A stretch of DNA of 64,000 bases from Promethearchaeota archaeon (GCA_029838195.1 JALGVJ010000005.1:1-64000), one strand, 5' to 3'; shown: positions 3,762 to 55,647, counted from the first letter of the stretch. Notes: generated by a model from the sequence alone, not told the origin. Numbers and translations: made by a program.

Positions 3762-6062
3762 ATGATTACGACGAGAGAGGCAATCAATTATCAGTTTTCT
3801 ATAATTTATGGATACTCGTCTCAAAAGGATGATTTTTCGGTAGGAGATGTTTTTGGACCGGGGAATTTGACGAGAGAAAAGGTAAAACAACTTTCTCATG
3901 AAGTCATCCGGTTTTTAAGGATGTATAATGCCGTTTTACGAGATTTTTGCGGTTCGGAAGTATTTTCTATCGAATTTGAACTTCATAATTTGGTTGAGTT
4001 AAACATACCTTATCCAAAATCCATGATACTCATTCCCGGTCGATTTAAGGATCGTGAAAGCTTATTACTTGCGTTAAAGCCGGATACGGGCTACATTAAC
4101 ATGCATAAATCAAGAGCATCCGTGGATACAATAAGCAAGCTCTTTTTCGAGGTTGAAGAATTTAGCGAGCATCCCGAGTTAAATTCTCAAGAAAAGGAGA
4201 GATTCTTGAATAAATTTGCCTCTCGTTTTGCATTAAGATTATTCGGAGAGCTTCTTGAAAATAAATGGGCAAAAAAACTAATTGGACTTAGTGAAGCTCT
4301 TCCTACGGAAAAAGACATGCTCACTAAATATATTGATATTTCTTCTAAATATGAAATATCATGGTTAACCAGGCCTCCTAAAATAAAAATAAAAGAGCCT
4401 AAATTTCAAAAGATTAAAAATCCGCCTGAGGAAAAATCCATTTTAGATCATTTAAAATACAAAATTTCAGAGCCGAGTGCTTATTTCATCGTAGAAAAAA
4501 CCGTACAATTAGGGTCAGATTTGTTTAATTTAGCAAATACAGGTACCATAGATGAGACAAAAGAACAGCTCGTGCTTTTCATTGTACGGAAATTACAAGA
4601 AGAATTTAAGAAAATTTCTTCTCCTTATTTTGTTAATAAATTCATGCCTAAAATGAGAGCAATATTAAAAGATATAGAAGTTTATTTTCAAGAATTCATA
4701 GAGCATTCCAATACATTTTTAAAGATGGGAGAAGTGGGAACGCTTTTGGATTTATTGGAGAAATTTAAATATTATGTGTGTGAGAAGGGGCACTCATGTA
4801 ATAATGATTATGAAGAGATCAGTACAATTGCGATTAATTATTTTAAGCAATACATTATCGAGCAAGAAAAGTTAAGAGCTATAGATTTGAGTTCAGGTGT
4901 AAATTATTTTTCAGAACTCATAAAAAGCAGTTTCAAGTTGATACAAGAGGCTCTACCCAGTTATCTATCTCGAAAAAAGCTAATAGAATTGGAGCAATCC
5001 TTCCATAAATTATTAAAGGAGAAATTGGAGCAAGAACAAGAACCGGCACGGATATTAGGACATAAAATTATTGAAAAATATCATGAAAATCTTAGAGAGC
5101 TCATTGAAAGACACCCGCTCGTGTCCAAGAAAACACATTTCTATGATGATAAACTCTTGAAAGAAGCATTTGACTCCATTTTACATGAGAGTTTAGATTC
5201 TTTTTTTGATTCTTTTCAATTAGGGATTGCCGATATCATCTCATTTGCTGAAGAGGGACTCGGAAGCAGTGTTAATAGCGTGAAAGATCACATGGAAAAA
5301 TTTAAAACTTTTGAAAAAGAGCTTCATTTCCTTATGAATTATATCTTACGAGATTCTACAATCAATCGATTCTTAAAACAATATTCTATTGAAGAATTAA
5401 ATGATCCCCTTGACTTTTTGACCCGTTTTTCTCGTTTTTTGGAGAGAAGGATGGGAGGATTTAATTTGCATTGGGATAAATATATATTGGAATGGATTCA
5501 GGATTTTATTAATAAACTTGAGGAGACCTCGCTCCAAAAAGATTTACCTTTTATAGAAGTACATGAACAATTCATTACCTATTTGGAAGAAAGAGAGAAT
5601 TATGAAACTCAAATTGAAGCTTTCATGGATTTTTTAGATGGATACATAGCAAATGTAGAAGATCTTGAACAAAAGGAGGTGCTCTTAGAATTTTTTAAAC
5701 AATATGAATTTTGTTTGGATATTAAAAAAGAATTTCCTCAATACTTGAAAAGGAAAGTTAAAAAAGTAATTGAAGCATTTAAACCGACTAACGAGCCCCG
5801 AATACCCATTTCTTATTTATCTATCGAGAATAGACAAGATTTTTTTGATTATCTAAGAGAAACGGAGCTAAAATATTTTTCTAAATTAATTCCTCGTCCT
5901 AAAACAATCATCTTGCGACATTTATTAACGAATGATGAGAAAGAGGTATTTTATGGCGATTTATATCATGTCTTCGAGTTTAAATTCTTAAAATCTTACT
6001 TGGAATTAAGTGTGAATGATAATTTTAATAGAATATTTAGAGAATGGTCCAGAAGGCTTTAA
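3762..6062 (+). CDS. Hypothetical protein, 766 aa, largely alpha-helical
   Basis: Long ORF with genome-typical composition; no recognisable motif. Confidence 0.8.
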   Translation: MITTREAINYQFSIIYGYSSQKDDFSVGDVFGPGNLTREKVKQLSHEVIRFLRMYNAVLRDFCGSEVFSIEFELHNLVELNIPYPKSMILIPGRFKDRESLLLALKPDTGYINMHKSRASVDTISKLFFEVEEFSEHPELNSQEKERFLNKFASRFALRLFGELLENKWAKKLIGLSEALPTEKDMLTKYIDISSKYEISWLTRPPKIKIKEPKFQKIKNPPEEKSILDHLKYKISEPSAYFIVEKTVQLGSDLFNLANTGTIDETKEQLVLFIVRKLQEEFKKISSPYFVNKFMPKMRAILKDIEVYFQEFIEHSNTFLKMGEVGTLLDLLEKFKYYVCEKGHSCNNDYEEISTIAINYFKQYIIEQEKLRAIDLSSGVNYFSELIKSSFKLIQEALPSYLSRKKLIELEQSFHKLLKEKLEQEQEPARILGHKIIEKYHENLRELIERHPLVSKKTHFYDDKLLKEAFDSILHESLDSFFDSFQLGIADIISFAEEGLGSSVNSVKDHMEKFKTFEKELHFLMNYILRDSTINRFLKQYSIEELNDPLDFLTRFSRFLERRMGGFNLHWDKYILEWIQDFINKLEETSLQKDLPFIEVHEQFITYLEERENYETQIEAFMDFLDGYIANVEDLEQKEVLLEFFKQYEFCLDIKKEFPQYLKRKVKKVIEAFKPTNEPRIPISYLSIENRQDFFDYLRETELKYFSKLIPRPKTIILRHLLTNDEKEVFYGDLYHVFEFKFLKSYLELSVNDNFNRIFREWSRRL

Positions 6063-47437: not shown

Positions 47438-47528
47438 TGCGCCCACCGGGATTTGAACCCGGGTCGACGGCTTTCTTCGGAGATGAAATCCGTGGAAGGC
47501 CGCAATCCTACCACTAGACTATGAGCGC
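47438..47528 (-). tRNA. tRNA-Gly(UCC) with a canonical 20-nt intron (47473-47492)
   Basis: GCGCTCA...GCGGC CTTCCA^CGGATTTCATCTCCGAAGAA^A GCCGT...GGTTCAAATCC; BHB CTTC/GAAG. Confidence 0.95.
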
Positions 47529-53924: not shown

Positions 53925-55143
53925 TTAAAAAAAGTAAATAGAAATGCTATTTGGAACAAATAAATCTTCCTCCTTATTCCTACAAGCAATAAAAGATATG
54001 CCCATTCGAATGAGAACAGTGAGTAGCCTGTTGCTTAAAATTCCATTGATTATTAACACTTTTAAATTCGAATGATCTTCTATTTTTTCATAGAGTTCAG
54101 ACACGGGTAATTCAAAGAGTTTCTCTCCACTACCATTAAAACCTACTGCTAATCCATCTTGAATATTTCGAATGGTGTTAATTATCTCTTCTTCATTTTT
54201 TAGTTTAACTTTCGACAATTTTTTATGCAAGATGTCGTCCTTGCTTTTGCCTTTTTTTAGCTCTCGATGTTCTAATTCTAGACTTTTCACGGGTTTTTTA
54301 TTCTGTAGTGCCTTGATCATCTGTTTACGGGTGAGTTCTTCGACTTCGTATCCTTCAGGAGCCCTTGCTACATAATCTAACTTGGCAACTTGTTGAAGCT
54401 CGTTCAGAATGATGGTACCTCCTCTATCACCGTCCACGAATGCGATAACATTTTTTTTCTTTCTTGTTAAATCTGCGACTGATTTGGGAATATTAGTTCC
54501 TTGAACCGCAATAGTATTTTTCAGGCCGATTCTTAAAAGATTTAATACATCAGCACGGCCTTCCACGATTATTAATTCATCGCTCTTATCTACGTCGGGA
54601 CCTGCGGGTAATTTATCAGGACCCCATTCCGTGATTTCACCTAAATTAATATCTTTTTCTATTTTTTCTTCAATCTCACTAGTTTCTAAGGATTTTTCAT
54701 CCCATTCTTTCAGTAATTCTGCCGCTCTCTTAATGATTTTCTTGCGCTTGCTCTCTCTAACATCTTTAATTTCTTTTAATTTTATCTCTGCTTCACAAGG
54801 TCCAACGCGAGTTACCGTCTCAACGGTGGCGGCGAGAAGGGCAGTTTCTTTTCTCGTGAGGCTACTCGGAATGCGTATTTCTCCTTCCGTCATGCCTTCT
54901 TTTGTACCAAGCTCGACTTCTATTCGTCCAATTCGACCGGATTTTTGAAGATCCCGTAAGTCTAGATCCAAAAGAAGGCCTTCCGTTTAGCCGATAAGCC
55001 GAAAAGGCTTCTTATAATTATCTCTGGCCGAATATAGCCCCAACGATATCGCTCTTCTCCACAACCCCTTTTATTGAAAAATTAACGATAATAATATATT
55101 TAGTAGTAAAATCAATTTGATTATTGTTAGTAATCTTGATCAC
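53925..55143 (-). CDS. dnaG: Archaeal DnaG (TOPRIM, exosome-associated), two exons: 55143(or 55134)-55024 and 54986-53925
   Basis: Exon 1 reads ...TTKYIIIVNFSIKGVVEKSDIVGAIFGQ; exon 2 reads TEGLLLDLDLRDLQKSGRIGRIEV...VEGRADV...DGDRGG; the ORF track shows only part of exon 2. Confidence 0.92.
54987..55023 (-). other. Candidate 37-nt BHB-type intron in the dnaG mRNA
   Basis: TTC GGCC AG^A GATAA...TTATC GGCT AA^A CGGAA: 4-bp central helix GGCC/GGCT, two 3-nt bulges, intron helix GATAA/TTATC; excision restores FGQ-TEG. Confidence 0.85.
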
Positions 55144-55647
55144 TTCCTTAAGAATAATTTTTTCATAAAATTGAAAAAATAATAAAAAATATTGACAAAA
55201 TCTTTTTATTTATAATCTTTATTTGAATCTAATCTATTTTTTTAGTAATTTGGATCATATAATAATTATGATTCAAATCAATATCTGAGAATTTATTAAA
55301 GGTTAAATCTTTTATCTTCATTATTTATAAGAAGAGCCGTTTAATTTCTTTTTAAAAAAATAAAGTGATGAATAATTGATGTAAAATTATTTTACCCTCT
55401 TATACTACCTTTCATGAATTTCCCGAGGGTGAGTCCTTTAAATTAAGTTCTACCTTTATGAGATCATGAGGAGTTTTTAAAAAATTTTCCAAATTGTTGG
55501 AAAATTGGAAATTGTTTTATTTAATTTCAAATTTTTTTAAAGTATTAAAGATGGGATGAATGTTAAATCCCACATTAAAAATTAGAAATTAATTAAAAAT
55601 ATTTTAGTTGGAATTAATAAAAACGACTTAAAAATAAGGAGAATCAA

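What the first reader, a model, noticed from the sequence alone, without database searches (positions are those of the whole stretch)
54987..55023. Candidate tRNA-type (BHB) intron inside the protein-coding gene dnaG
Seen: the conserved DnaG motif GAIFGQTEGLL is split exactly between Q and T by 37 nt (AGATAATTATAAGAAGCCTTTTCGGCTTATCGGCTAA). The insert carries an in-frame TAA and shifts the frame, while both flanks are otherwise intact. The junctions fold as GGCC-AG^A-GATAA...TTATC-GGCT-AA^A: a 4-bp central helix, two 3-nt bulges and a 5-bp intron helix, with a relaxed outer helix. The cut rule that works for all six tRNA introns here (after the second bulge base) gives ...GGC CAG|ACG GAA..., a perfect in-frame join. 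Established: archaeal mRNA BHB introns are known chiefly from crenarchaeal cbf5; archaeal DnaG is an exosome-associated RNA-binding protein; eukaryotes use tRNA ligase for HAC1/XBP1 splicing. Inference: EndA/RtcB-dependent mRNA splicing in an Asgard lineage, possibly linking exosome function to splicing capacity. I am not aware of a described dnaG intron but could not search.
Basis: partly seen in the sequence, partly recalled or inferred. Interest (0 to 1): 0.95.

Follow-up and report, generated by a model that had tools for sequence, protein, structure and literature searches.

The report
tRNA-type mini-intron splitting Asgard dnaG
The only dnaG gene of this Asgard (Promethearchaeota) archaeon is broken by a 37-base insert shaped like an archaeal tRNA intron. 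Comparison with over 50 relatives shows the insert must be removed from the mRNA, a kind of splicing published so far for only one archaeal coding sequence (cbf5).

Summary
On the minus strand, dnaG is split at 54987-55023 by 37 nt that carry an in-frame TAA and shift the frame. Exon 1 matches positions 1-26 and exon 2 positions 27-278 of the archaeal DnaG model, so nothing is missing or added.

It is the only dnaG in the genome, and two other assemblies carry the identical insert. In the nearest family sample, 22 of 37 genomes have a same-site insert. All 37 inserts inspected (29-43 nt, all three phases) keep a 4-bp helix between exon GGNC and the intron's 3' end. One pair of that helix shows five pair types.

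The predicted cuts follow the rule seen in this genome's tRNA introns. Exon 1 is under purifying selection. EndA (three paralogues) and RtcB are present.

Best reading (about 0.87): a relaxed bulge-helix-bulge pre-mRNA intron removed by EndA and RtcB.

The outer helix is weak, and folding energy alone does not favour the motif.

In print I found only cbf5 and one Haloferax 5' UTR intron. Earlier unchecked notes of this scan report dnaG introns in other Asgard genomes and other coding-gene introns in this genome.

The parts
55024..55143 (-). dnaG exon 1. It is 40 codons if translation starts at GTG 55143, but the true start is uncertain. It ends ...KSDIVGAIFGQ.
   Evidence: The ORF is listed. 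Residues 15-40 match NF003108 (archaeal DnaG) profile positions 1-26. pN/pS is 0.19 among intron-bearing relatives.
54987..55023 (-). 37-nt intron AGAUAAUUAUAAGAAGCCUUUUCGGCUUAUCGGCUAA. It has an in-frame UAA at its codon 2 and shifts the frame by +1.
   Evidence: Homologous same-site inserts of 29-43 nt occur in 37 family genomes. There is no second copy of the intron sequence in the genome.
53925..54986 (-). dnaG exon 2: 353 codons plus stop. It starts TEGLLLDLDLR and carries the Toprim domain.
   Evidence: Toprim families. NF003108 scores 380.6 bits against a cut-off of 300, on profile positions 27-278.
55026..55029 (-). 5' strand of the 4-bp central helix (exon GGCC: Gly codon GGC plus the C of CAG).
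   Evidence: It pairs with 54989-54992. The helix is 100 % paired in 18 distinct sequences, and the pair at the Gly wobble base shows CG, AU, GC, GU and UG. RNAalifold predicts the same helix independently.
55023..55025 (-). 5' three-nucleotide bulge A G | A. The predicted cut lies between 55024 and 55023.
   Evidence: The same 'cut after the second bulge base' rule holds in tRNA-Gly of this window and in other tRNA introns of the genome.
55018..55022 (-). Intron-internal helix, 5' arm GAUAA.
   Evidence: It pairs with 54993-54997. The first three pairs are kept in most relatives: GC in 18/18, AU or GU in 16/18, and UA in 14/14 ungapped sequences.
54998..55008 (-). Distal hairpin GCC-UUUUC-GGC inside the intron.
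   Evidence: 100 % paired wherever it is present (11 sequences), with one-sided changes only (helix 4).
54993..54997 (-). Intron-internal helix, 3' arm UUAUC.
54989..54992 (-). 3' strand of the central helix (intron GGCU).
   Evidence: 4 of 4 pairs in all 37 family introns.
54986..54988 (-). 3' bulge A A | A. The predicted cut lies between 54987 and 54986. If the only available outer pairing (UUC with GAA) forms, the bulge is 5 nt.
   Evidence: (helix 1). The strict outer helix fails because it would start with a C-C mismatch.

Best explanation
The 37 nt are a tRNA-type (relaxed bulge-helix-bulge) intron in the dnaG pre-mRNA. The last bases of exon 1 (GGCC) pair with GGCU near the intron's 3' end and form the 4-bp central helix. 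The intron's own hairpin (GAUAA/UUAUC plus a distal GCC/GGC stem) stacks on that helix. This presents the two splice sites in bulges AG|A and AA|A on opposite strands. The splicing endonuclease EndA cuts after the second base of each bulge. RtcB then joins ...GGC CAG to ACG GAA..., giving an mRNA for a full-length DnaG of about 393 residues with the intact motif GAIFGQTEGLL. Unspliced RNA can give only a peptide of about 41 residues, because of the stop at intron codon 2. Shown here: the anatomy, the exact exon abutment, conservation and covariation across relatives, selection on both exons, and the presence of the enzymes. Inferred: that EndA and RtcB do the cutting and joining, and that it happens in vivo.
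For: (1) Exon 1 matches NF003108 profile positions 1-26 and exon 2 matches 27-278, with no residue lost or gained. (2) The genome holds a single dnaG. (3) The insert is identical in two other assemblies, GCA_029838155.1 and GCA_054387035.1. (4) 22 of the 37 nearest family genomes carry an insert at exactly GQ|TE, and 15 lack it precisely. Fifteen more, from a batch chosen as likely carriers, brought the inspected inserts to 37. Lengths are 29, 30, 31, 32, 34, 35, 37, 38, 39, 40 and 43 nt, covering all three phases, and the two lengths divisible by three carry stops. This excludes a translated insertion and a common frameshift mechanism. (5) The central helix has 4/4 pairs in all 37. The pair between the Gly wobble base and the intron shows CG 7, AU 5, GC 2, GU 2 and UG 2 in 18 distinct sequences. 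No shuffle out of 500 reaches the observed covariation score, and pairing drops from 91 % to 29-57 % when the 3' partners are slid. RNAalifold finds the helix by itself. (6) GGAC with GUCU and GGGC with GCCU are complements, not repeats, so this is a helix and not a target-site duplication. (7) Exon 1 has pN/pS 0.19 (pS 0.71) in intron bearers against 0.12 in intron-less relatives. (8) tRNA introns of the same genome (19-42 nt) have the same geometry and cut rule, often with an AA|A 3' bulge. (9) The genome encodes three EndA-family proteins, the best one closest to crenarchaeal catalytic subunits (PDB 3p1z_B, 3ajv_B), and one RtcB. (10) BHB inserts occupy the same site in two other Asgard families, f9 (GGCC/GGUU) and f13 (GGUC/GACC). 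In f17, the BHB rule singles out the one 28-nt excision, among about 45 tried per locus, that restores FGQTEGLLGEDL. (11) argG and rpl11 of this genome are interrupted in the same way.
Against: No RNA-level evidence exists. No spliced junction was found in JGI metagenome contigs, and no spliced-length protein was found in the 5.8-billion-protein collection. The motif is relaxed: there is no canonical outer helix, only UUY/GAR, which is forced by the Phe and Glu codons and needs a 5-nt 3' bulge. Thermodynamics alone does not favour the motif. The 81-nt fold has z = 0.01 and a different MFE structure. The central helix appears in the MFE structure of only 5 of 22 relatives, although the constrained BHB folds at -4 to -10 kcal/mol. 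The covariation rests on few independent events, perhaps 3-5 lineages, and the relatives are not independent. The substrate range of this organism's EndA is unknown.
Confidence: 0.87

Rival explanations
1. Split or truncated gene. Exon 2 is translated alone from an internal start, as public annotations assume (335-348 aa products). Exon 1 is either a separate small peptide or a remnant.
For: Gene callers report 348 aa (from TTG 54971) and 335 aa products for this species, and 316 aa for genus g9.
Against: Exon 2 has no conserved start codon at or near the junction: relatives read CTT CTT TTA where the window has TTG. Exon 1 stays under purifying selection in a frame that makes sense only when joined. 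The break falls inside the most conserved motif, exactly at profile positions 26|27. A split gene would not need a covarying helix between exon 1 and the insert's 3' end.
Confidence: 0.05
2. Translational recoding. Ribosomes bypass the 37 nt (as in T4 gene 60) or shift frame, so the RNA is never cut.
For: A stop codon follows closely after the last sense codon and a hairpin lies nearby, as at the gene 60 take-off site (the gene 60 comparison is from my own knowledge).
Against: There is no matching landing codon. The codon before ACN is UAA, UAG or UUA, while the take-off codon would be CAR. Insert lengths cover all three phases, so no single frameshift can serve. The conserved feature is the BHB central helix with bulges in tRNA-intron geometry.
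Confidence: 0.03
3. The insert is removed from the RNA, but by machinery other than EndA and RtcB: another nuclease that recognises the hairpin, or a different ligase.
For: The 3' site lacks a canonical outer helix, and no enzyme assay exists.
Against: The geometry and cut rule are the same as in the genome's tRNA introns. EndA and RtcB are present. According to the abstract of PMC5829648, (alpha-beta)2 and epsilon2 EndA types cleave non-canonical motifs.
Confidence: 0.03
4. Decaying pseudogene or assembly artefact.
For: The frame is formally broken.
Against: The gene is single-copy. The sequence is identical in independent assemblies. The same site is interrupted in 37 genomes while both exons remain intact and under selection.
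Confidence: 0.02

Closest known systems
cbf5 pre-mRNA intron of Crenarchaeota (Desulfurococcales, Sulfolobales; Watanabe 2002, cited in PMC7714728; Yokobori 2009, PMC2738675)
   Same: It is a short BHB-type intron inside a protein-coding sequence, removed by the tRNA-splicing machinery. Its distribution is patchy, with lineage-specific precise losses. The host gene encodes an RNA-metabolism protein.
   Different: The gene (dnaG rather than cbf5) and the phylum (Asgard/Promethearchaeota) differ, and the intron sequences are unrelated. Splicing of cbf5 was shown experimentally; here it is inferred. cbf5 of this genome shows no interruption in its TruB_N domain.
BHB intron in the 5' UTR of Haloferax volcanii HVO_1309 (PMC7714728)
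   Same: It is an mRNA substrate of the archaeal splicing endonuclease outside tRNA and rRNA.
   Different: It lies in the untranslated leader and is 46 nt long, so it does not interrupt a reading frame. It was confirmed by circRNA-seq and in vitro cleavage.
Archaeal tRNA BHB introns, including this genome's own (for example tRNA-Gly UCC, window 47438-47528)
   Same: Both have a 4-bp central helix, 3-nt bulges, a cut after the second bulge base and an A-rich 3' bulge. The size ranges overlap (19-42 nt for the tRNA introns).
   Different: The host RNA is an mRNA. The outer helix, supplied in tRNA by the anticodon stem, is almost absent here. The exon strand of the central helix is constrained by codons.
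Eukaryotic HAC1/XBP1 unconventional mRNA splicing
   Same: It is spliceosome-independent cut-and-join of an mRNA, sealed by a tRNA ligase (RtcB in metazoa), and it changes the reading frame. This comparison is from my own knowledge and from abstracts listed.
   Different: The nuclease is Ire1, not the tRNA endonuclease. The sites are twin stem-loops, not a BHB. The splicing is regulated by stress, and no regulation is shown here.

Membership tests
Archaeal BHB (EndA-type) intron | A 4-bp central helix separating the two splice sites | tested here: met
   GGCC pairs with GGCU in the window. All 37 family introns have 4/4 pairs, one pair shows five pair types, and RNAalifold predicts the helix independently.
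Archaeal BHB (EndA-type) intron | Two 3-nt bulges on opposite strands, with cleavage at symmetric positions that gives the exact exon junction | tested here: met
   The bulges are AG|A and AA|A. Cutting after the second base of each joins profile positions 26|27 of NF003108 exactly. The rule is the same in tRNA-Gly and in other tRNA introns of the genome.
Archaeal BHB (EndA-type) intron | Flanking helices on both sides (strict hBHBh' form) | tested here: not met
   The inner helix is present in the window (5 bp) and has at least 3 bp in most relatives. The outer helix fails in the strict register because of a C-C mismatch, and only UUY/GAR with a 5-nt bulge is possible. The motif is therefore a relaxed one, not the strict form.
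Archaeal BHB (EndA-type) intron | The host encodes the splicing endonuclease and the RtcB ligase | tested here: met
   PF01974 matches three times, at C1, C8 and C53, and PF01139 matches once, at C23. The C1 protein is closest to crenarchaeal catalytic subunits.
Archaeal BHB (EndA-type) intron | Excision seen in RNA (spliced exons, linear or circular intron) | not testable with these tools
No spliced junction was found in metagenome contigs.
Archaeal DnaG (NCBIfam NF003108) | Whole-protein score above the curated cut-off and a contiguous match to the profile | tested here: met
   Exon 2 alone scores 380.6 bits against a cut-off of 300, on positions 27-278. Exon 1 covers positions 1-26. Toprim domains are present.
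Programmed translational bypass (T4 gene 60 type) | Matching take-off and landing codons flanking the gap | tested here: not met
   The take-off codon would be CAR, and the codon before exon 2 is UAA, UAG or UUA.

The most novel reading that the evidence does not exclude
EndA/RtcB cut-and-join of mRNAs is a routine layer of gene expression in this Asgard lineage, since dnaG, argG and rpl11 are all interrupted in this one genome. On this reading the GQ|TE site of dnaG is one of two things. It may be an ancient intron position shared by several Asgard families (f1, f9, f13) and lost precisely many times. Or it may be a preferred landing site for a still unknown mechanism that spreads BHB introns. 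Splicing efficiency could then set the level of full-length DnaG, an exosome component.
Probability: 0.35. Interest if true: 0.85.

Novelty: new member of a known kind. Interest (0 to 1): 0.72.

Why it matters
In the papers I could search, a BHB intron inside an archaeal coding sequence is documented only for crenarchaeal cbf5, and one further mRNA case lies in a Haloferax 5' UTR (PMC2738675, PMC7714728). [quoted passage not shown]

- It extends protein-coding RNA splicing to a second gene and a second major archaeal lineage.
- It shows that gene callers systematically truncate such genes. Public records give DnaG as 316-348 aa instead of about 393.
- It offers a tractable system: one short intron, present or precisely absent among congeners. 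This could be used to study how such introns are gained and lost and whether they regulate expression.

Tried and rejected
- **RNA evidence.** Exact searches for the spliced junction of this species and of the 32-nt g9 relatives in JGI metagenome contigs found nothing. Protein searches found only truncated gene calls and no spliced-length form for either species.
- **Ab initio genome screen.** I screened the genome for BHB geometry (4-bp central helix plus a 3-bp inner helix) that joins two long open frames. It recovered dnaG but gave about 1000 junction clusters. On the plus strand it found 481, no more than decoys with slid partners (477-525), and stricter filters brought no enrichment. The screen has no power, and it also missed argG and rpl11, whose motifs differ.
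- **Free-energy support.** There is none: z = 0.01 for the window, and the BHB appears in the MFE structure of only 5 of 22 relatives.
- **Mobile-element copy.** The intron sequence is unique in the genome.
- **Target-site duplication.** TCGGCCAG and TCGGCUAA look like a repeat only because GGCC is a palindrome. Relatives with GGAC/GUCU and GGGC/GCCU show complementarity, not repetition.
- **Alternative exon-exon helix.** In several MFE structures, GGCC of exon 1 pairs with GGCC or GGUC of exon 2. This pairing is not kept when the wobble base is A or G.
- **Frameshift, translated insertion, pseudogene, artefact.** All rejected; see the rival explanations.
- **Careful tree.** The careful maximum-likelihood tree did not finish, so only the quick tree was used.

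Full report
**What is there.** On the minus strand the window reads ...GGG GCT ATA TTC GGC CAG, then 37 nt (AGATAATTATAAGAAGCCTTTTCGGCTTATCGGCTAA, 55023..54987), then ACG GAA GGC CTT CTT.... The upstream frame gives ...KGVVEKSDIVGAIFGQ and runs into AGA TAA. The downstream frame, shifted by one base, gives TEGLLLDLDLRDLQKSGRIGRIEV... and stays open for 353 codons with Toprim domains. The curated archaeal DnaG model NF003108 matches exon 1 on profile positions 1-26 and exon 2 on positions 27-278, at 380.6 bits against a cut-off of 300. The two pieces therefore abut without a missing or extra residue.

**It is real DNA and the only copy.** A six-frame search of the 4.5-Mb assembly (96.6 % complete) finds a single dnaG. 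The same protein is encoded on contigs of two other assemblies, GCA_029838155.1 and GCA_054387035.1, whose sequence across exon 1, insert and exon 2 is identical. A cluster member at >=90 % identity is named 'Promethearchaeota archaeon', a phylum of the Asgard kingdom Promethearchaeati. Public gene calls give 335 or 348 residues, which means the annotation lacks exon 1.

**Comparative evidence.**
- Among the 36 nearest family genomes plus the window's own, 22 carry an insert exactly between the Gln codon and the Thr codon, and 15 have the uninterrupted GAIFGQTEGLL.
- Seventeen further loci were chosen because their open frame stopped near the site. Fifteen of them held inserts and two did not.
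- The 37 inserts are 29, 30, 31, 32, 34, 35, 37, 38, 39, 40 or 43 nt long, so they fall in all three phases. The 30- and 39-nt ones carry in-frame stops. They cannot be translated insertions, and no single frameshift could serve them all.
- Exon 1 (26 aligned codons) has pS 0.71 and pN 0.13 (ratio 0.19) among intron bearers, against a ratio of 0.12 in intron-less genomes. It is maintained as coding sequence in a frame that is useful only after excision.

**Structure.**
- In every one of the 37 inserts, the four exon bases GGNC that end two bases before the 5' junction pair with the four intron bases that end two bases before the 3' junction.
- N is the wobble base of the Gly codon and is free to vary. 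Its partner follows it: C-G (GGCC/GGCU), A-U (GGAC/GUCU, GUUC, GUUU), U-G (GGUC/GGCU), G-U (GGGC/GUCU) and G-C (GGGC/GCCU).
- On 18 distinct sequences the central helix is 100 % paired. No shuffle out of 500 reaches the observed covariation score. Sliding the partners by 1-3 columns drops pairing from 91 % to 29-57 %.
- RNAalifold predicts this helix without guidance.
- These pairs are complements, not repeats, so the resemblance of TCGGCCAG to TCGGCUAA in the window is not a target-site duplication.
- After the 5' bulge (AG|A, AA|A, AA|U or AA|G), the intron forms its own helix against the central helix: GAU...AUC in most relatives and GAUAA/UUAUC in the window. A distal GCC/GGC hairpin follows.
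- The 3' bulge is AA|A in nearly all.
- The outer helix is the weak point. In the strict register it begins with a C-C or U-C mismatch. Only UUY (Phe) with GAR (Glu) can pair, and that leaves a 5-nt bulge. The motif is a relaxed BHB.

**Same rule as the genome's tRNA introns.** The tRNA-Gly(UCC) gene at 47438-47528 (minus strand) has a 20-nt intron with the layout stem GCGGC, CUUC, CA|C, GGA...UCC, GAAG, AA|A, GCCGU. This is a canonical BHB cut after the second bulge base. Genome-wide, ARAGORN tRNAs, 23 of them with introns. The clean ones (19-42 nt) show the same geometry, often with AA|A or AA|U at the 3' bulge.

**Enzymes.**
- PF01974 (the catalytic domain of the tRNA intron endonuclease) matches three ORFs of 202, 199 and 106 aa.
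- The two longer ORFs also carry the N-terminal domain.
- The 202-aa protein is closest to crenarchaeal EndA chains (3p1z_B, 3ajv_B, 2cv8_A). The 199-aa protein matches more weakly, including weak matches to beta-subunit models.
- Two different subunits would fit a heteromeric enzyme. [quoted passage not shown] Assigning this enzyme to a type is my inference.
- One RtcB gene is present.

**History.**
- On a quick maximum-likelihood tree of exon-2 proteins, the early-branching family genera (g8, g1, g3, g4) carry the intron.
- A derived clade of 19 sequences mostly lacks it, with carriers in genus g2 and in one g11 species.
- The label needs at least 2-4 changes. Outgroup families f2, f4 and f7 lack the intron.
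- The 35-43-nt introns of g1, g2, g5, g8 and g11 are visibly homologous, sharing ...GCC-NUUUC-GGC-UAAUC-GGCUAA. Their scattered absence among congeners is therefore best read as repeated precise loss, as proposed for cbf5 (PMC2738675).
- Beyond the family, BHB inserts sit at the very same site in f9 (32 nt, GGCC/GGUU) and f13 (31-34 nt; GGUC/GACC in one genome and 3 of 4 pairs in two others).
- In f17 the site differs. Of about 45 frame-restoring excisions tried per locus, the BHB rule picks out one, a 28-nt intron four codons downstream, and it restores the consensus FGQTEGLLGEDL.
- Representatives of f10, f19, f20, f22, f25 and f27 are uninterrupted.
- Whether the shared site is ancient or a recurrent target is open.

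**Context in this genome.** argG is missing profile positions 1-11 of PF00764. A 32-nt insert at C19:88220-88251 splits YSGGLD|TS, and the Pfam match starts at the next base. rpl11 is broken in the same way by about 28 nt at C47, roughly 5653-5680. The TruB_N domain of cbf5 lies in one open frame. dnaG is therefore not an isolated case here.

**Limits.**
- I obtained no RNA evidence.
- Free-energy folding does not favour the motif.
- My structure-plus-ORF genome screen had no power over decoys.
- The covariation rests on a handful of independent lineages.

**Literature and earlier notes.** Full-text searches found no report of a dnaG intron or of Asgard coding-gene BHB introns. PMC7714728 states that, besides its Haloferax 5' UTR case, only the cbf5 mRNA intron had been reported. 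Earlier unchecked notes of this scan describe dnaG introns in other Asgard genomes and other coding-gene introns in this genome. I checked argG directly and rpl11 in part. I found a 28-nt dnaG intron in family f17, but whether f17 is the lineage of the earlier 28-nt note is not established. I also found the 32-nt intron of genus g9, but I could not reproduce the RNA evidence claimed for a 32-nt relative.

**Verdict.** This is a real, conserved, relaxed BHB intron in an essential single-copy gene, and it is very probably spliced by EndA and RtcB (0.87). It is a new member of the kind defined by cbf5.

Noticed in passing
window 47438-47528 (-): tRNA-Gly(UCC) with a canonical 20-nt BHB intron at position 37/38 (CUUC CA|C GGA...UCC GAAG AA|A). 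ARAGORN mislabels it as tRNA-??? in the window run and as SeC(tca) in the genome run.
   Followed up: yes
G000 contig C19:88220-88251 (L056:1469-1500): A 32-nt insert splits the ATP-binding motif YSGGLD|TS of the only argG. The PF00764 match starts at the base right after the insert, at profile position 12. Its hairpin geometry differs from the dnaG intron and was missed by my strict BHB scan.
   Followed up: partly
G000 contig C47: about 5653-5680 (-) (L057): rpl11 is interrupted by about 28 nt between ...VKALVTGG and (N)ASGGPPIGP. The PF03946 match starts at profile position 8.
   Followed up: partly
window 55130-55155 (-): The start of dnaG is unclear. The GTG at 55143 lies inside a Shine-Dalgarno-like GGAAGTGATC, and no ATG, GTG or TTG follows before the conserved KYII. 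In one relative (L013) a stop codon directly precedes 'ITNQTDF', which hints at a non-canonical (ATT/ATA) start or a start further downstream.
   Followed up: no
L046 and L051 (family f17); L045 and L050 (f9); L044, L048 and L049 (f13): Other Asgard families also carry dnaG introns. f9 and f13 have them at the same GQ|(T/L)E site. f17 has a 28-nt intron four codons downstream. The N-terminal motif region of dnaG looks like a hot spot for such introns.
   Followed up: partly
all f1 introns (A1): Every family-f1 intron has an in-frame stop at its first or second codon (AGA UAA, UGA, AGC UGA, GGA UGA, UGG UGA, AGG UAA, AGA UAG). In nearly all of them the intron's last three bases (UAA, once UAG) are a stop in exon 2's frame. 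Unspliced RNA would therefore terminate at once. f9 and f13 introns lack this feature.
   Followed up: no
G324 contigs C40 and C91 (L077): One related bin holds two dnaG copies, one intron-less and one with a 38-nt intron. This is probably two strains in one bin (about 6 % contamination).
   Followed up: no
G000 C1:152152-152757 (-), C8:28088-28684 (+), C53 (L040:1495-1812, -): There are three EndA-family genes: two of about 200 aa with both domains, and one of 106 aa with only part of the catalytic domain. This suggests a heteromeric splicing endonuclease.
   Followed up: partly
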